Shown here one piece after another: positions 17,938 to 42,352 of a stretch of DNA of 64,000 bases. The notes below the pieces were generated by a model. That model had not been told where the DNA came from, did not search any database, and saw nothing but the letters and a program-made list of their open reading frames with translations. Every line of letters starts with the position of its first letter. Within the stretch, counting starts at the first letter, position 1. Made by a program: the position numbers and the translations under genes. Origin of the DNA: a virus (lineage: Duplodnaviria > Caudoviricetes); the IMG/VR virus record IMGVR_UViG_3300020577_009322, positions 32,001-96,000 of that record. The stretch is one strand, 5' to 3'.

Positions 17938-20202
17938 TATTTTATCTTTGTTTGTCCTAAAATAGCCTCAATAGACTTTAATCCTTCCTTACTTCCAATT
18001 CCTTTACAGATAGTAAAGAATGAGTCATATATGGTAAAACCATCCCTAACCAATTCTGCTACTAGCTTTAAGTGCCTGATAGACAAATTAAAGGAGATAG
18101 TATACTTATCATGAGCAGTATTTATGTCCTCATAACACTTAACAATTCTGTCAATATCTTTAGGAGATACTGTTGGAGTATGGTAAGTTAATACTTCTTT
18201 AACTTGATTGGTTGTTAGTGGATCAATCTCAATAAGCATGAACCTATCTAATAAGGCTCTATCCAATTTATGTGTACCTGTATACTGACTACCCAAGTTA
18301 GCAGTAGAGATAAATACACATTCAGGATGTACCTTAATTGGCTCACAATCATCAAAACAGTATTCCATTGACAGTTCTTTCCTGAAATCCGTACATGGGA
18401 ATAGGAGGTTATTTGCGGCTGCTGGAGCCATATTGTTATCGTATCGACTCTTTATTCGATACTTCTGTATCTTTATCTATACATACAGTTCAGACTATAT
18501 CATCATGATTTCTCATGTCGGATGTTCGTGGATATATTATATTCTCTTTCGAGTTTCAATATCTAGTCGTTGAACTCGCACTAACCATTTAGATTAGTGA
18601 TAAGCTGCTGATTACCCTCTTCACTAAGGGCTTTCCAGCAATTTATCCGATTTTTTACAAGACGCTACTCCATATAGGAAAACGTGTATTTTTTCCGCAA
18701 AGTTTTACCCTTACCTAAGCAAATTGAAGAAATAGAAGCACAAGTAGAATCAAAGTTGTCATTTGACAGAGATCTGGCTGCTTCTGCTATATTTGCAAAT
18801 ATAGATTTTTTACCAGTTGATAATTCTGTCATGATAACTGACCTCCACTTCCACTTAGAGCGTTCTATCCCATAAGAATAGTTAGGAACTTCTATATAAC
18901 TCCAATAATAACCACCCGCACTAAAAATTTTACCTCTGGCACAAGCAGATATCATGTTATTACATACTTTTGTTTTTCTACCTGCCTCTCTGGTTGAAGG
19001 AAAATTAGCTAATAATCTACCATCTAAAGTATATTGATAAACTTCCTTACTAGTAGATGTGCAATTATTTTGAGTAGTTGGATCCAACTCACAATTAAGT
19101 GTTGGACCTAATAGATCTATCCATTTCTTCTCTATCTTTCTAACTTCAGAAGAATCTTCGGTCTCCAGGATTTCTAGTACTGAGAAATACATATAATCTT
19201 CTCCATATTTATTGAAGATATTCTGCATTCTTGGATTATCCGATTTCCCACCTCTCAACTTTTGCTTGTGTTCAGCTAATCTCTTCTTAATATTTATCGA
19301 ACTACCTACGTAATTCTGCTCCTTTGCTTTAATATAGTAAATACCCGATTTACTAATTACACGTTTTGATTCATCACTAAATAATTTGTACATTGTTTTT
19401 CTTACAATATACAAATATTTGATGAGATATCCTAATTTAATTTTTAACGACTTATTTCATCTAATAACACAATACCTGGTTTCTGAATAACCTCAGAGAA
19501 ACGACTCCTGATGAACTCGGAGGTGGTATGTCCATCTTTTACCTTAATAGCATGGGTTCCAACTAACGACATAACGGGATCACTCATTGTTCCCATATCG
19601 AAGATAGTTAATGGTAATCCCATTTTCTTTGCCAAATTACTAACCAATTCTGTTTTACCTCATCTTGTTATCGTAAAGATTCTTTATTCTTTACTTCTGC
19701 ATCTTTTTATATTCATGCAGTTCAGACTATATCATCACCATTTCTAGTGTCGGGCACTCGTGGGAGAGATTATTGTTGAGCTCACTCTCCTAGTCGTTGA
19801 ACCTTCTAAACTCCTTTATCTCAAGTTTAGCTTGGCTGCTGATTGGCCGTTTCACTACGGCTATTCCAGCAATTCACCCGATTTATACTGGGCTAGGTAA
19901 ACCTAACTCCTTATCCATCTAGTTAATTTCTTACAATGTACGAAAATTATTGACAAATAGGACTATTAGGCTATATTTATTTTAACACCAGTTGGACCCA
20001 ATAGCATACTATTGACGCCCTTCAATATATTCCTCTCCAGAATCTTATACACACCTACTTGTACCTTAAAGTAGTCATTCAAGGATACATAACCATTTGT
20101 AATCTTCAGATCAGCGGTACTTACTGCAGTTTTAATAGGATCTGTTTTTCTTTTTGCTCTTGGCTTACGTACTTTGGTCACCACTTCTCTTTCTGTTGTC
20201 AT
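17937..20202 (-). CDS. MoxR/CbbQ-type AAA+ ATPase in three exons (20202-19985, 19660-19447, 18428-17937; 307 aa spliced)
   Basis: Joining the exons restores GPTGV-GKT and LLDEISR-APA; exon 3 has ISTAN...LDRALLDRF; total 924 nt in frame. Confidence 0.92.
18429..19446 (-). mobile_element. Group I intron 2 (1018 nt) carrying a homing endonuclease
   Basis: Follows U, ends in G; core AATTGCTGGAA, AATCAGCAG, GTTCAACGACTAG, GATGATATAGTCTG; IGS 18657-18672 pairs both exons. Confidence 0.93.
18665..19393 (-). CDS. Intron-encoded GIY-YIG endonuclease with NUMOD1-like repeats
   Basis: SGIYYI...YVGSS...R; VYQYTLDG..FPSTREA..SAGGYYW; probable ATG start at 19393. Confidence 0.9.
   Translation of the reverse strand: MYKLFSDESKRVISKSGIYYIKAKEQNYVGSSINIKKRLAEHKQKLRGGKSDNPRMQNIFNKYGEDYMYFSVLEILETEDSSEVRKIEKKWIDLLGPTLNCELDPTTQNNCTSTSKEVYQYTLDGRLLANFPSTREAGRKTKVCNNMISACARGKIFSAGGYYWSYIEVPNYSYGIERSKWKWRSVIMTELSTGKKSIFANIAEAARSLSNDNFDSTCASISSICLGKGKTLRKKYTFSYME
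19661..19984 (-). mobile_element. Group I intron 1 (324 nt, no ORF)
   Basis: Same four core motifs at about 19723-19875; IGS TTTACCTAGCCCAGT (19887-19901) pairs exon1 ACTGGTGT and exon2 AGGTAAA; terminal G. Confidence 0.93.
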
Positions 20203-22971: not shown

Positions 22972-24111
22972 TCATTCGTATTCTTTTCTGTTTAATTTAG
23001 TAATATATGGGAATCTCAGTTTACCTGCAGGCGTATATCCAAAGAACTGGATTGTTGCTTCAGTACCAATATAGGTATCTCTATTGTCCCACACTTCTTT
23101 TAAAAAGGAATGGACCCCTTTAACATTGCTTTTACAGCAATTAATTCTTTTCTTCTTATCATAGGGTTTAGATTTATCCAGAATTACCCAGAATTTACCG
23201 ATAGTTCCAGCTCTGCTACCCTTACCTTCTACATAATCAAAGATCTCAAATTCTTCATCAATAAAGTCTTTGTGTTTAAGTAACTGATCACATCTCTTAT
23301 TCTGGTATTCTGCAGTATCTGTACGAATAATGGTTCCTTCGTAACCTTCTTTTAGGAACTTTTTGTGATACTCTAATACTTCTTTATGACTATGTACTTC
23401 ATAAGTAGGTACCAGCTTAATTGAGGAATTATTCTGGGTAGAAAACCACTTTTTAAGAGCTTCATATCTAACCGAGAATACACCCTTTACTGAAGGATAG
23501 TCATAGGCCCAAAATTCCATTACTTTAGCTTCTTCCTTCTGTTCATCTGTCAGATCTTTACCACTTCTTATAAGAGACACAATCTTATTAAAGTCATCAT
23601 TATATGAGTGGGTATACAACTCTCCATCTAACTGAGTGGTATTTTGGTAGAGATGTGGACAAGAGGTAAAAGGCTTACCGTTTCTACTTGTTAGAGTATT
23701 ATTTTGACTATCTGAACGTAATCCATCTAGCTTGGGTTGAACAAATACTCTATACTTTCCCCATTCTACACCTACTCTTCTTTTTGGTTTAGATACTGAT
23801 ACTTCCCCATATGTCTCTGCAAGCATTGGTTCAAAGTAGTTCTTTTTCTCTGTTAGCACCTCATTATAGCTTTTATCTAGCTTACCTTTATGTTTAGAGG
23901 TGGCTTCAGCTAATGCTTGCTGTTCTGGAGTAGTCTCGTTTTTCTTACCAATATTCTTCCCTATGCAAATAGTTGGTTTACTGGTAGTTAGCTTTCCGTC
24001 CTTTATACCTTCAATAGTATAAAATTTATCTCCATCTACCACTATTTGCCATTGTTGGATGGCACCTTTTGTTGTATACTTATAAAGTATAGGAAATTCT
24101 TTCTTCATCAT
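22972..24111 (-). CDS. ATP-dependent DNA ligase
   Basis: EPMLA, QPKLDGLR, LDGELY, EGYEGTI, LLKHK, LRFP. Confidence 0.92.
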   Translation of the reverse strand: MMKKEFPILYKYTTKGAIQQWQIVVDGDKFYTIEGIKDGKLTTSKPTICIGKNIGKKNETTPEQQALAEATSKHKGKLDKSYNEVLTEKKNYFEPMLAETYGEVSVSKPKRRVGVEWGKYRVFVQPKLDGLRSDSQNNTLTSRNGKPFTSCPHLYQNTTQLDGELYTHSYNDDFNKIVSLIRSGKDLTDEQKEEAKVMEFWAYDYPSVKGVFSVRYEALKKWFSTQNNSSIKLVPTYEVHSHKEVLEYHKKFLKEGYEGTIIRTDTAEYQNKRCDQLLKHKDFIDEEFEIFDYVEGKGSRAGTIGKFWVILDKSKPYDKKKRINCCKSNVKGVHSFLKEVWDNRDTYIGTEATIQFFGYTPAGKLRFPYITKLNRKEYE

Positions 24112-30970: not shown

Positions 30971-31085
30971 TGTAGAAAGGGATGTCTTACTTAAACGACA
31001 GATGATATCCATTCCGTACTTATACATAGCAGGTTTGAGGGTCCGGATCATCTGAAAAGGATTCGAACCTTTTATATCCCTTACT
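30971..31085 (-). ncRNA. Circularly permuted tRNA-like RNA (3' half precedes 5' half)
   Basis: AGGGA-TAT-AAAAGG-TTCGAAT-CCTTTT-CAGATGA-TCC, ~39-nt spacer, TCATCTG-TC-GTTT-AAGTA-AGAC-A-TCCCT-TTCTA. Confidence 0.7.
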
Positions 31086-33657: not shown

Positions 33658-33897
33658 TTATTCTATTACTATCTGATTTTCTTTAGTAAAATTAATGTTA
33701 GAAAATTTCTCATCAACACATCTCTCACATATGTGAGCTCCCCATCTCTCCATATCTTTATTAGAACCAAATCCCCACTTTGCTAACATTGTCATATATT
33801 CAAAACCATAATCAGTCTTACAAGATTTACCACAGCAATCACAGATAATATCTTCTACTATCTCCTGTTCTTTTACTTCTTTCTTTACTTTTCTCAT
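33658..33897 (-). CDS. Zn-ribbon protein
   Basis: CDCCGKSC...HICERC. Confidence 0.7.
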   Translation of the reverse strand: MRKVKKEVKEQEIVEDIICDCCGKSCKTDYGFEYMTMLAKWGFGSNKDMERWGAHICERCVDEKFSNINFTKENQIVIE

Positions 33898-34037
33898 TGT
33901 TATTATATTGGTTGTTCATTATGCCAGTCATTATCTGTAAAGAGATAATCAGGTGATTCATACTCTACTATATCTACTTCTTGAAAGAATAGAGATAAAA
34001 TAAGTTTTACTATCTTTTTCATGTTGATAAGTTTTAA

Positions 34038-34110
34038 GGGGTCTCATACAAGATTCGAACTTGTGATCTTCTCCATCAAGGAGATGAGTTCCCACTTCTC
34101 CAATGGACCC
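34038..34110 (-). tRNA. Aberrant tRNA-like element (5-nt anticodon loop TTGAT, bulged acceptor stem)
   Basis: GGGTCCAT/ATG(A)GACCC, D-arm GAG-AAGTGGGAA-CTC, TCTCC-TTGAT-GGAGA, ACAAG-TTCGAAT-CTTGT. Confidence 0.65.
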
Positions 34111-34638
34111 ATATTAAAAAGAGGGGACTATCCTACGATAATCCCCTTCTTGTGTGCTCTCTTTCTCCCTTAACGAGAAAAGTCATGGAGTACTTAGATC
34201 TAGAGATTTTTAATCATCTCAACCATCTTATTAAGAGACGGCCAGACGCAACTATATCTCACAGTTAATTGGTAAAAACCAATCATTTTTTATCATGCAG
34301 TAAGAAAAGACTGCAGCCTACTGCCAATATAACTAACCAAATACACCCTTGTGGATAATTATGATAATTTTTAGCTGTTAAGTAGCCCGACATGAATAAT
34401 AAGAAACATGAGAGGATAAAATTACCTAGTTTCATTCTTTTTTAGGTTCTAGAGTTTCAATAATGGTTACTTCTGCAGAAGTGTCTAGCGGTGATGGATG
34501 TAATATGATATCATTATCATCTACTCTCTCACCCCTCTCCTTTAGATACATAACGATAGCTTGCTTGATATCTTTGATATCGAGTAGCAATGTTCTTTTT
34601 CTTGTTTCTTTAATTTCCATAAATAACGTTTAAATTAG

Positions 34639-34797
34639 TGCGGGAGAAATGGATTCGAACCACTGACCTCCACCTTATCAGGGTGGTGCTCTATTATTCT
34701 CTTTACATTATAATCGTTCCAAGCTATCTATTGTACACTAGATAACGTACTTAGCTATAACATATTTAGATGAGAAATTCCACTGAGCTACTCCCGC
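34639..34797 (-). tRNA. tRNA-Ile(GAT) with an 86-nt insertion (34694-34779) in the D-loop
   Basis: GCGGGAGTAGCTCAGTGG-[86 nt]-TAGAGCACCACC-CTGATAA-GGTGGAGGTCAGTGGTTCGAATCCATTTCTCCCGCA. Confidence 0.85.
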
Positions 34798-34801
34798 TGT
34801 T

Positions 34802-35116
34802 TTAAAATCTGTATATCTCTAATGCTTCTTGTAAGCAAGGGACTAATTCCTTGATCTTTACTATATTATATAGCTTAAATCCACAGTTTACTACATCTGT
34901 ATCAGACAGACCATAATATATAGCCCAATCATGTATCTGGCCCCTTTTGGCTACCCACTTAATCGTATTCGGCAAGGAAGGCAATGAGAATGGTATTTTT
35001 ATTACATCATCTGTACCATTTTCTATATTACCTGTAGCAAAGATAGTCCCTGGCTTCATTTCCCTTAGATCATCAAGTGATAACTGTGGTGTTATTGGAG
35101 GAAATAAATATTCCAT
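34802..35116 (-). CDS. Hypothetical protein with N-terminal YLFPPI motif
   Basis: Starts MEYLFPPITPQL. Confidence 0.7.
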   Translation of the reverse strand: MEYLFPPITPQLSLDDLREMKPGTIFATGNIENGTDDVIKIPFSLPSLPNTIKWVAKRGQIHDWAIYYGLSDTDVVNCGFKLYNIVKIKELVPCLQEALEIYRF

Positions 35117-36690
35117 TATTTTTTCTTTAATATTTTACTTATTGAGACTATTAAATAGATACCTAAACTAACTCCTTGCTCAAAAAGCAGATACAATAGT
35201 AGGAATATAGGATTAAGGGTTATTGCCATTATTAGCGGTGCAACAATTAATAGTATCCAAACTATTATAAAGAGTAGTATATATCTCATGTTATTAGTTT
35301 TAATTAAAAAAGCAGGAACCACCTAAGTGATTCCCGCTAATTTTGTACAAGTAGCCTTATTATAAGCTTAAGACGACTTGCAGATTGCCTGCCAATTCCA
35401 GTGATCTCAGAGATGTAGTAACAATACATTCTTTCTTCATGCTGTGGCTAGTTTTAGGTTTTCCAGTTTTTTCTTATAATAAGAGAGATATTCTTCTGAA
35501 GAAATAATCATCTCTTTTACTATTAAAGATTGGTTAGGTATTGTTTTAAGATACTTAATATAATCTTCCTCCCTGTTTACAGTACTCTGTAAAGATAGGA
35601 TAAGCCTGTTTTCTTGCATACAGCTATTTGATTAATGGATAATTATAGTTACTTTAGTCAACTTATATTCCTTCAATTGTTTTAATACAATTGGATGAGA
35701 TTTTGTACATTTTATTAAGAGCTCTTTTGGTTGTTTTATTTCCAAAGAGATGAGGTGAGGAACATTCTGCTATTTCCAGAAGATTGTTTACCTGTATTAT
35801 GTGACCAAATATACCCGGAAGTTTCTTGTGTTGCAATGTTTTAAATATCATGATTCGTTGATTTGCTGTTCAATGATACGAGATAATAGATGCTGAAATT
35901 TTGTCATAGTAATAAATTTAAGAAGTTAGGAAAATATAGAAATATTCTCCGCTCTAATCCATAAAAGTTGTGATACATTACAGTTTCATAATAACCTCCT
36001 GTTTTAAAGATTTCTAAAAAATACTCAAATAAAAAAAGCAGTGACCATAGCCACTGCCTTTAACCTAAAACTTGCCTACAACGAACCAAAAGTTATGAAG
36101 CTAACTTATACTCTCTTACTGTGAAGAAGTCCAGATTTGGATATCTGGCAAATAACTTATTACGTAGTTCCCTTCTGTTTTTTTCGTAATTACAAGATGT
36201 AATAAAGCCAATCCGATATGAGGATCCATTTTTACCCCAACACCGGGCAATTAGGTGAGTTACCATTCTTTACCAATTTTAGAGTTGATTGATATAAATT
36301 TGTAGAAGTAGCCCAATTGACATCTAGAGGATATCCTCCCCATATCATAGAGCATATTACTTCATAAAGTTCTTTTTCTCTCTTCTTCCATTGATAGGGT
36401 AATGTCTTTCCATTTACCTCTTCATAGAAGTAGGTTATCTTCTTAGACATATATTATCTTGGTATTTTGATTATCATATTGCAGGGTGTCCAGGTTTGAG
36501 AAGGTTAAAAGAACAAAACAGGATAATCTGGACAAAAACATGGACAAAGCCAGCATGATGCTCTGGGCACCCTGTGAAATAGCCAAGATAACTGTCTTTT
36601 TCTGCATTCAGTTAAGCCCCATTTCAAAAGACGATTGCTACCTGGCGATCTCGATCTTTACTTTTTTATTCTTGATCTTCTCTTTTTTGA

Positions 36691-36975
36691 TCAGTTCCAG
36701 CCAATTAATACTGTTACTTTATCATTACCTCTTAATTGCACCTTTCCGTCTTGAACTGTTACGCCTGGCAAATTTTGCATTGTTTGTAAAACCGAACCTC
36801 CACTTTGACTGATGTTATCTTCAACTTTAAAAGTCTTTTTATCCATTTCGGTAGTAGCAAGAGTAATTATTGTTCCCTTCTCTGTCTTTGTTCCCAATTT
36901 TAGTTGACTTTTAAGGCGCTCCAATGCGTCTTTTCTACGAATGTTTACCTGTCCACTACTTTGTGATAGCTTCAT
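36691..36975 (-). other. Chimeric ORF: phage N-terminus fused to a TonB-dependent receptor plug fragment
   Basis: MDKKTFKVEDNISQSGGSVLQTMQNLPGVTVQDGKVQLRGNDKVTVLI matches Bacteroidota TBDR plug-domain sequence. Confidence 0.7.
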
Positions 36976-42310: not shown

Positions 42311-42352
42311 GAACCAGCCAGGGAATCGAACCCTGGTTGTTCCAAACTGGTT
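42311..42352 (-). ncRNA. Mini tRNA-like element (acceptor stem plus T-arm only)
   Basis: AACCAGT-TTGGAACAAC-CAGGG-TTCGATT-CCCTG-GCTGGTT-C. Confidence 0.6.

What the first reader, a model, noticed from the sequence alone, without database searches (positions are those of the whole stretch)
34639..34797. tRNA-Ile(GAU) carrying an 86-nt hairpin inside the D-loop
Seen: deleting 34694-34779 gives a near-canonical 73-nt tRNA-Ile. The insert sits right after G18G19 and folds back on itself (TTCTC/GAGAA, TTATAG/TTATAA, TATCTA/TAGATA). It has no group I core or terminal G. Known: bacterial tRNA introns are self-splicing and mostly lie in the anticodon loop, whereas short D-loop introns are archaeal-type. 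Inference: this is either an enzyme-spliced intron in a bacteriophage or a retained extra arm at the elbow, which could shield the tRNA from host nucleases or act as a decoy. Standard tRNA finders may well miss it.
Basis: partly seen in the sequence, partly recalled or inferred. Interest (0 to 1): 0.8.

Follow-up and report, generated by a model that had tools for sequence, protein, structure and literature searches.

The report
Phage tRNA-Ile split by D-loop hairpin
A 155-kb phage carries a second isoleucine tRNA gene cut in two by a precise 86-base hairpin insert at the tRNA's elbow; it matches no known intron type, and I found shorter inserts at the same spot in a few other viral tRNA genes.

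Summary
On the minus strand (34797 to 34639) lie an 18-nt tRNA 5' piece, an 86-nt AT-rich insert and a 55-nt tRNA 3' piece. ARAGORN and Rfam miss the locus. Deleting exactly 34694-34779 gives a tRNA-Ile(GAU) that ARAGORN accepts, and only these boundaries restore the D-loop AGUGGUA. One oddity remains, an extra U between the T-stem and the acceptor strand.

A second assembly is identical, so this is not an assembler artefact. The insert is not a group I intron, has no bulge-helix-bulge fold, is not tRNA-shaped and is single-copy. The phage encodes no recognisable splicing endonuclease, RNA ligase or RNase III. It has an intact tRNA-Ile(GAU) elsewhere. Thirteen relatives lack both this gene and the insert.

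Pattern scans of IMG/VR found nine other loci (seven genes) with 35-54-nt gaps after G18G19. One family shows compensatory changes inside the insert.

Earlier notes of this scan that I saw describe anticodon-loop inserts in phage tRNAs, not this D-loop type.

I slightly favour a live gene whose insert is removed after transcription (0.38) over an insertion-killed pseudogene (0.35) or a retained arm (0.22). No RNA data were available, so function is unresolved.

The parts
34780..34797 (-). 5' piece of the tRNA: acceptor 5' strand GCGGGAG, U8, A9, D-stem 5' strand GCUC, D-loop A14-G19 (AGUGG)
   Evidence: Sequence. 7/7 pairing with 34640-34646 and 4/4 D-stem pairing with 34688-34691. 29 of the first 30 nt equal a Bacteroidota tRNA-Gly(GCC) once the insert is removed.
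34694..34779 (-). 86-nt AT-rich insert between G19 and U20. It folds as a long imperfect hairpin: a 5-bp basal helix UUCUC/GAGAA, a middle helix of about 10 bp, and an 8-bp apical helix with an 8-nt loop.
   Evidence: Folds. Single copy in the genome. No Rfam family at E<=10. Not tRNA-shaped. No match in GenBank phages, in 401 sampled Bacteroidota genomes, or for its central 20-mer in IMG/VR.
34639..34693 (-). 3' piece of the tRNA: U20, A21, D-stem 3' strand, anticodon arm (GAU at 34679-34677), variable loop, T-arm, extra U (34647), acceptor 3' strand, A73 (34639). No CCA is encoded.
   Evidence: Rfam tRNA partial match, 28.5 bits. 78-86% identity to the 3' parts of tRNA genes annotated Ile, Val, Met and Thr in GenBank phages. 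ARAGORN accepts the gene after the deletion.
34802..35116 (-). Upstream same-strand ORF (104 aa, unknown function). Its stop codon lies 4 nt before the tRNA 5' end.
   Evidence: Its relatives at about 40% identity in IMG/VR are not followed by a tRNA.
34432..34620 (-). Downstream same-strand ORF (62 aa, unknown function). It starts 18 nt after the tRNA 3' end, so the 159-nt element fills nearly all of the 181-nt gap between two co-oriented genes.

Best explanation
This is a live second tRNA-Ile(GAU) gene of a 155-kb phage whose host is probably in Bacteroidota. It is interrupted between G19 and U20 by a precise 86-nt intervening hairpin that is not self-splicing.

Shown:
- The two tRNA pieces are flawless apart from one extra U.
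- The whole 159-nt transcript can fold as a cloverleaf with a fifth arm projecting from the D-loop, at essentially the same energy as the unconstrained optimum.
- The element sits between two co-oriented genes, so it would be co-transcribed with them.

Inferred:
- RNase P and the 3'-end nucleases trim the tRNA-shaped precursor.
- Protein endonucleases then cut out the fifth arm. At about 25 bp of imperfect duplex, it is long enough in principle to be an RNase III-type substrate.
- The two pieces are either rejoined by a host ligase, or they stay together as a nicked two-piece tRNA held by the acceptor and D stems, as rRNA fragments do after removal of an intervening sequence.

It would belong with the unexplained ('enigmatic') inserts reported in tRNA genes of Lak megaphages of Prevotella, but at a different site.
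For: 1. All 21 stem pairs of the two pieces are standard pairs, one of them G-U. U8, A14, G18G19, A21, U33, A37, the G53-C61 pair, the T-loop UUCGAAU and A73 are all present.
2. The deletion boundaries are unique and restore a natural 7-nt D-loop, with no target-site duplication.
3. The cloverleaf-constrained fold with the arm is -42.8 kcal/mol against an MFE of -43.2. The spliced form folds to a cloverleaf on its own, at -28.6.
4. Independent assembly is identical.
5. The architecture recurs. IMG/VR scans found nine loci (seven genes: CUA suppressor, Asn, Lys-UUU, two variants of Lys-CUU, Phe, Gly) with a 35-54-nt gap between G18G19 and A21. All become ARAGORN-valid on removal of the gap sequence, and several encode CCA.
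6. In the Lys-CUU family, 8 of 35 predicted pairs show compensatory changes, 3 of them inside the insert.
7. The record holding the CUA case also has a tRNA with about 45 extra nt in its anticodon arm.
8. A circularly permuted tRNA(CUA)-like gene 3.7 kb away is ARAGORN-valid when its halves are rejoined, and it has the same odd extra U. This hints at a shared cut-and-join route.
9. Published precedent for unexplained phage tRNA inserts: PMC6784885.
Against: - No RNA evidence of any kind.
- The phage has no detectable EndA, RtcB, Rnl1, Rnl2, 2H ligase or RNase III, so every processing step would rest on host or unknown enzymes.
- RNase III products (5'-P/3'-OH) are not RtcB substrates.
- The phage already has an intact tRNA-Ile(GAU) at genome 103771-103844, so this copy is dispensable.
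- None of 13 relatives at 64-70% aa identity has the gene or the insert, so nothing shows conservation of THIS insert.
- The insert's folding energy is not above chance.
- The other D-loop cases have unrelated, shorter inserts, so the RNase III idea does not generalise.
- Two of those genes lie next to integrases and carry stem mismatches.
- My pattern forced the insert position, so 'the same site' is partly ascertainment.
Confidence: 0.38

Rival explanations
1. Insertion-killed tRNA gene. A tRNA-Ile(GAU) acquired in a hypervariable accessory region was hit by an 86-bp palindromic insertion, for example filler DNA from break repair or a lone palindromic element. It no longer yields a decoding tRNA. 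At most its acceptor/T-arm half still serves as an RNase P/Z cleavage signal in the polycistronic transcript.
For: - It is redundant with an intact tRNA-Ile(GAU).
- The gene is absent from all 13 relatives and from the distant homologous contexts.
- The region also holds host-derived gene fragments and other aberrant tRNA-like pieces.
- It has an extra U in the acceptor/T junction.
- No splicing mechanism or enzyme could be identified.
- Two of the other D-loop-insert genes (Phe, Gly) have stem mismatches.
Against: - Both pieces are otherwise flawless, in a compact phage genome where dead DNA is usually lost. A recent insertion would explain this too.
- The insert has no target-site duplication, only 5-bp subterminal inverted repeats, and no second copy, so it does not look like a transposable element.
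- The same architecture occurs in otherwise perfect tRNA genes with an encoded CCA, and with covariation in one family.
- The same extra U occurs in the neighbouring permuted tRNA-like gene, which argues against random decay.
Confidence: 0.35
2. Retained fifth arm. The 159-nt RNA is the final product, a tRNA-shaped RNA with a roughly 25-bp arm at the elbow. It either decodes despite the arm, or more likely has a non-decoding role: a decoy for a host tRNA-cleaving defence nuclease, a sponge for a tRNA-binding protein, or a handle for a phage protein.
For: - The insert enters at the length-variable part of the D-loop (position 20, an established property of tRNA structure), with 3-nt linkers on each side.
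- The cloverleaf plus arm is energetically as good as the MFE.
- In the Lys-CUU family the loops of the insert are conserved as well as its helices, and that RNA has other non-canonical features: a bulged nucleotide in the acceptor stem and C33.
- The same accessory region holds several acceptor/T-arm look-alikes.
Against: - From general knowledge of tRNA-ribosome and RNase P contacts, an arm next to the G19-C56 pair should collide with partners that stack on the elbow. Normal decoding therefore seems unlikely.
- No partner protein is known.
- This insert has no conserved motif and no relatives.
- Its fold is no better than shuffled sequence.
Confidence: 0.22
3. Assembly or library artefact: a chimeric palindrome inserted into a normal tRNA gene during metagenome assembly.
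For: This is metagenome-derived sequence, and the insert is a near-palindrome. That is a form some amplification artefacts take.
Against: Two assemblies made by different pipelines agree base for base over 2.7 kb: the JGI contig of 155,386 bp and a Logan contig from SRR32380193. The same reads may underlie both, so this excludes assembler error but not a library artefact.
Confidence: 0.03

Closest known systems
'Enigmatic' introns in tRNA genes of Lak megaphages of Prevotella (Devoto et al. 2019, PMC6784885)
   Same: These are phage tRNA genes, in phages of Bacteroidota, interrupted by short inserts with no recognisable ribozyme class. They are missed by bacterial tRNA finders, present in some genomes and absent in others, and have no known mechanism.
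   Different: The Lak inserts were called with eukaryote-mode tRNAscan, which models anticodon-loop introns, and one is itself tRNA-like. Here the insert lies in the D-loop (19/20), is a plain 86-nt hairpin, and is not tRNA-shaped.
Archaeal and Cyanidioschyzon-type tRNA introns at non-canonical positions, including the D-loop, cut at bulge-helix-bulge motifs by the splicing endonuclease and joined by RtcB
   Same: A short protein-spliced insert can lie in the D-loop. Such genomes also hold permuted tRNA genes, as this phage may.
   Different: There is no BHB at the junctions and no EndA in the phage. The host is bacterial: the phage carries group I introns and a Bacteroidota gene fragment.
Group I introns in bacterial and phage tRNA genes (Rfam RF00028)
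   Same: A precise insertion in a tRNA gene without target duplication. This same phage window has two true group I introns.
   Different: 86 nt is far below group I size. There is no RF00028 match even at E<=10. The 5' exon ends in G, not U, and the insert ends in A, not G. The site is the D-loop, not the anticodon loop.
Intervening sequences of bacterial 23S rRNA and palindromic repeat elements co-transcribed into RNA (Correia, ERIC, Rickettsia palindromic elements); from general knowledge
   Same: An extended imperfect hairpin replaces a loop of a structural RNA. Such hairpins are removed by RNase III without rejoining, or are tolerated.
   Different: Those elements are multi-copy or lie in rRNA. 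This insert is single-copy, has no TA duplication and has only a 5-bp subterminal inverted repeat. Fragmented tRNAs made this way are not known.

Membership tests
Canonical tRNA (Rfam RF00005 / ARAGORN) | Contiguous cloverleaf scoring at or above the gathering score (29 bits), or an ARAGORN call | tested here: not met
   The full locus gets no ARAGORN call, even at 90% thresholds or with the intron option. The only Rfam hit is partial, 28.5 bits, model positions 7-64.
Canonical tRNA (Rfam RF00005 / ARAGORN) | A cloverleaf with the invariant nucleotides once the insert is removed | tested here: met
   ARAGORN calls tRNA-Ile(gat) after deleting 84-86 nt, and the MFE of the spliced form is the cloverleaf. 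Caveat: one extra U lies between the T-stem and the acceptor 3' strand.
Group I intron in tRNA | A P1-P9 catalytic core (RF00028 match), U before the 5' splice site, terminal G, size of about 200 nt or more | tested here: not met
   No RF00028 hit at E<=10 in 33800-35200, whereas two real ones in the same window score 64 and 89 bits. The preceding base is G, the insert ends in A, and it is 86 nt long.
Archaeal-type BHB intron | Two 3-nt bulges separated by a 4-bp helix at the exon-intron junctions | tested here: not met
   In the cloverleaf-constrained fold the junctions lie in a 5 x 2-nt internal loop between a 2-bp extension of the D-stem and the 5-bp UUCUC/GAGAA helix.
Archaeal-type BHB intron | A splicing endonuclease (PF01974) and an RtcB ligase are available | tested here: not met
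   Neither is found in the phage genome. The true host's enzymes could not be examined. The Bacteroides thetaiotaomicron control has RtcB and only a weak PF01974 signal.
tRNA-shaped phage tRNA inserts (Lak-type 'tRNA in tRNA') | The insert lies in the anticodon loop and itself folds like a (mini-)tRNA | tested here: not met
   The insert is in the D-loop. ARAGORN finds no tRNA within the insert; even at 70-80% thresholds or in mitochondrial mode its few low-grade calls all run into the 3' tRNA piece.
Palindromic mobile element (MITE-like) | Multiple copies, terminal inverted repeats, target-site duplication | tested here: not met
   It is single-copy in the genome and absent from the relatives. 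A central 20-mer has no exact match in IMG/VR. There is no duplication at unique boundaries, and the inverted repeat is 5 bp and starts 3 nt in from the ends.
Phage tRNA genes with a hairpin insert after G18G19 (set assembled here, not a described family) | 5' piece ending ...G18G19, a hairpin-forming insert, 3' piece starting at 20/21, 7/7 acceptor pairing, a valid tRNA on removal | tested here: met
   Met by this locus. Loci L405, L406 and L411 show the same layout with 7/7 acceptor pairing. L407, L412, L413, L390, L391 and L398 pair at 6/7 (a bulged nucleotide or a mismatch). All nine are ARAGORN-valid on removal. The inserts share no sequence, so common origin is not shown.

The most novel reading that the evidence does not exclude
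Hairpin inserts in the D-loop, between G19 and position 20, are a new class of protein-dependent tRNA intervening sequence in bacteriophages, neither group I nor BHB. This phage, which also carries a circularly permuted tRNA(CUA) gene with the same odd acceptor/T junction, uses a cut-and-join pathway for tRNA that has not been described in bacteria. The pathway would use host or unknown phage enzymes and might time or protect tRNA supply during infection.
Probability: 0.25. Interest if true: 0.85.

Novelty: new variant of a known kind. Interest (0 to 1): 0.58.

Why it matters
In bacteria and their viruses the only tRNA introns with a known mechanism are self-splicing ones. A handful of 'enigmatic' phage tRNA inserts have been reported without explanation.

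If this insert is removed or tolerated, bacteria or phages must have a tRNA processing route, or a tolerance for an extra arm, that is not in the textbooks. Standard tRNA finders would then undercount phage tRNAs. That includes suppressor tRNAs: one of the other cases found here reads the amber codon.

If it is a dead gene, it is a clean example of how such genes decay, and the finding is ordinary.

Tried and rejected
1. Close relatives to test conservation. There is no DNA match in GenBank phages. Relatives of the upstream ORF (about 40% aa) lack the tRNA, and the downstream ORF has no relatives. The 13 relatives at 64-70% aa in a 928-aa protein lack both gene and insert. Five of them scanned by script (four complete records plus 100 kb of a fifth) show no other split tRNA.
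2. Metagenome scan with the anticodon-arm 22-mer. It found only high-GC bacterial tRNA-Ile genes.
3. Host capture. There was no exact 31-mer match in 185,579 species genomes and no near-identical tRNA in 401 sampled Bacteroidota genomes or 10 candidate-host genomes. The best look-alikes are tRNA-Val, tRNA-Arg and tRNA-Gly, so this is not a recent host copy.
5. Known ribozymes or RNA families in the insert: none.
6. Promoter or terminator inside the insert. There is one weak sigma-70-like match, no better than shuffles, and no terminator.
7. IMG/VR scan for 60-90-nt D-loop inserts.
8. GenBank counterparts of the other D-loop-insert tRNAs: none.
9. The 'DNA ligase' at 22972-24111 is an ordinary phage ATP-dependent DNA ligase, not an RNA ligase family member.

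Full report
**What is there.** The window is bases 32001-96000 of a complete 155,463-bp IMG/VR virus record with direct terminal repeats. It is about 32% G+C, has replication genes on the minus strand and has two group I introns.

The finding lies on the minus strand:
- 34797-34780 reads GCGGGAG-UA-GCUC-AGUGG.
- 34779-34694 is an 86-nt AT-rich insert.
- 34693-34639 reads UA-GAGC-A-CCACC-CUGAUAA-GGUGG-AGGUC-AGUGG-UUCGAAU-CCAUU-U-CUCCCGC-A.

ARAGORN and Rfam at gathering score do not report the locus. Infernal sees only the 3' part, at 28.5 bits against a cut-off of 29. After in-silico deletion ARAGORN calls tRNA-Ile(GAU).

**Boundaries and chance.** With the insert removed, 29 of the first 30 nt equal a Bacteroidota tRNA-Gly(GCC), including its 7-nt D-loop AGUGGUA. 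Only the deletion 34694-34779 restores this, so the insert sits between G19 and U20 and has no target-site duplication.

Chance is not a serious explanation. A whole-genome scan for a T-arm with a perfect acceptor complement up to 420 nt upstream gave only this locus, apart from by-products of neighbouring complete tRNAs. The 5' piece also carries U8, A9, the D-stem complement, A14 and G18G19.

One departure from a standard tRNA remains: an extra U (34647) between the T-stem and the acceptor 3' strand.

**Is the DNA real?** The upstream 104-aa protein is encoded on a JGI contig (sample 3300033065) and on a Logan contig from run SRR32380193. The Logan contig is 100% identical to the genome over 2,696 bp, insert included. 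This excludes an assembler artefact. It does not exclude a shared library artefact if the reads are the same.

**What the insert is not.**
- It is not a group I intron. There is no RF00028 match even at E<=10, it is too short, and both end nucleotides are wrong.
- It has no bulge-helix-bulge fold. In the cloverleaf-constrained fold the junctions lie in a 5 x 2-nt internal loop.
- It is not tRNA-shaped, unlike inserts noted in other phages.
- It is not a repeated element. It is single-copy here and absent from the relatives, from GenBank phages and from 401 sampled Bacteroidota genomes. A central 20-mer has no exact match in IMG/VR.
- Its hairpin is real, but its energy is no better than that of shuffled sequence (z = -1.2).

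The whole 159-nt RNA can form a cloverleaf with a fifth arm at -42.8 kcal/mol, against -43.2 for the unconstrained optimum.

**Context that argues for an ordinary dead gene.**
- The genome has 27 ARAGORN tRNAs, including an intact tRNA-Ile(GAU) and a tRNA-Ile(UAU) in the main cluster. The intact copy is only 49/73 identical to this one.
- None of 13 relatives at 64-70% aa identity has this gene. A script scan of five of them found no other split tRNA.
- The phage has no detectable splicing endonuclease, RtcB, Rnl1, Rnl2, 2H ligase or RNase III.
- The region is an accessory one. It holds a host-derived TonB-receptor fragment and other odd tRNA-like pieces.

**Context that argues for a live gene.**
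- Both tRNA pieces are flawless.
- The gene is not a recent host copy.
- I scanned IMG/VR with patterns that allow a 30-60-nt gap after AGCUCAG(Y)UGG, which is too short to arise from two adjacent tRNAs. This returned 29 stretches.
  - Most are a 5' tRNA fragment followed by a complete tRNA.
  - Nine loci (seven genes) are tRNAs split exactly here: a CUA suppressor (L405), Asn (L406), Lys-UUU (L411), Lys-CUU (L407, L413, L412), Phe (L390) and Gly (L391, L398).
  - Three pair 7/7 in the acceptor stem and the other six 6/7. All are accepted by ARAGORN once the gap sequence is removed, and several encode CCA.
- In the Lys-CUU family, 8 of 35 predicted pairs have compensatory changes, three of them inside the insert.
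- The record holding L405 also has a tRNA with about 45 extra nt in its anticodon arm.

The caveats on this set are as follows. The inserts share no sequence with ours and are shorter. The Phe and Gly cases lie next to Bacteroidota-type integrases and have stem mismatches. My pattern fixed the insert position.

Finally, the permuted tRNA(CUA)-like gene at 30971-31085 that another note flagged becomes ARAGORN-valid when its halves are rejoined. It shows the same extra U as this gene, which is hard to credit to random decay.

**Literature.** Lak megaphages of Prevotella carry tRNA genes with 'enigmatic' introns of no known class (PMC6784885). My searches found no description of a D-loop insert in a bacteriophage tRNA. 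The library holds open-access papers only.

**Verdict.** I give 0.38 to a live gene whose hairpin is removed after transcription, 0.35 to an insertion-killed pseudogene, 0.22 to a retained arm with a non-decoding role, and 0.03 to an artefact. The removal mechanism is inferred, not shown. The recurrence of the architecture is the new element and deserves a proper census and an RNA test.

Noticed in passing
window 30971-31085 (minus strand): A circularly permuted tRNA-like gene: the 3' half, a 39-nt spacer, then the 5' half ending in anticodon loop UUCUACA (CUA). It lies directly upstream of tRNA-Arg(UCU). Rejoining the halves in silico gives an ARAGORN-valid tRNA(CUA) with the same extra U (a U.U eighth pair) as the split tRNA-Ile. 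There is no counterpart in five relatives.
   Followed up: partly
window 34038-34109 (minus strand): The 72-nt 'tRNA-Ser(UGA)' called by ARAGORN is aberrant. It has no long variable arm, an odd anticodon loop (Infernal aligns a 5-nt loop), a bulged A in the acceptor 3' strand, and scores only 38 bits.
   Followed up: no
window 42319-42335 and 31056-31072; relative G009 at 82028, 82618 and 91224: Orphan T-arms (GGUUCGAUUCC type) flanked by acceptor-like complements, that is tRNA minihelices, occur outside called tRNAs in this phage and in a relative. They may be RNase P/CCA-enzyme substrates or processing signals.
   Followed up: no
G000:C1:104387-104469 (outside the window): An 83-nt tRNA-like gene in the main tRNA cluster is not called by ARAGORN. 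It has a perfect acceptor and T-arm, and a homologous uncalled gene exists in relative G010. It is probably a class II tRNA-Ser(UGA).
   Followed up: no
window 36702-36848: A 147-bp stretch inside a phage ORF is 95-99% identical at the DNA level to TonB-dependent receptor genes of diverse Bacteroidota MAGs (Cytophagaceae, Saprospiraceae and others), with sharp boundaries. It is a host clue, or a widely exchanged module.
   Followed up: partly
L405 (2617-2745), L406 (2151-2262), L411, L407, L412, L413, L390, L391, L398: Other IMG/VR tRNA genes with hairpin inserts right after G18G19 (35-54-nt gaps). The Lys-CUU family has a conserved insert core (GAAGGCCC.AGGCAU.GGACAGUAA), a bulged nucleotide in the acceptor stem and C33. 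The Phe and Gly cases sit beside tyrosine integrases.
   Followed up: partly
L410 (IMGVR_UViG_3300043788_000023): A tRNA-like gene with two anticodon-type arms in tandem, the first with CUA, between one D-arm and one T-arm. It resembles an architecture noted earlier in this scan for a tRNA-Ile.
   Followed up: no
G424:C1:155507-155622 (L415): A 116-nt tRNA in a 174-kb contig (estimated 50% complete), with 58 nt where the 13-nt central part of the anticodon arm should be. This is an anticodon-arm insert in the same genome as the D-loop-split tRNA(CUA).
   Followed up: partly
window 18471-18690 and 19704-19978 (minus strand): Two group I introns (64 and 89 bits) about 1 kb apart in the replication-gene region.
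   Followed up: no
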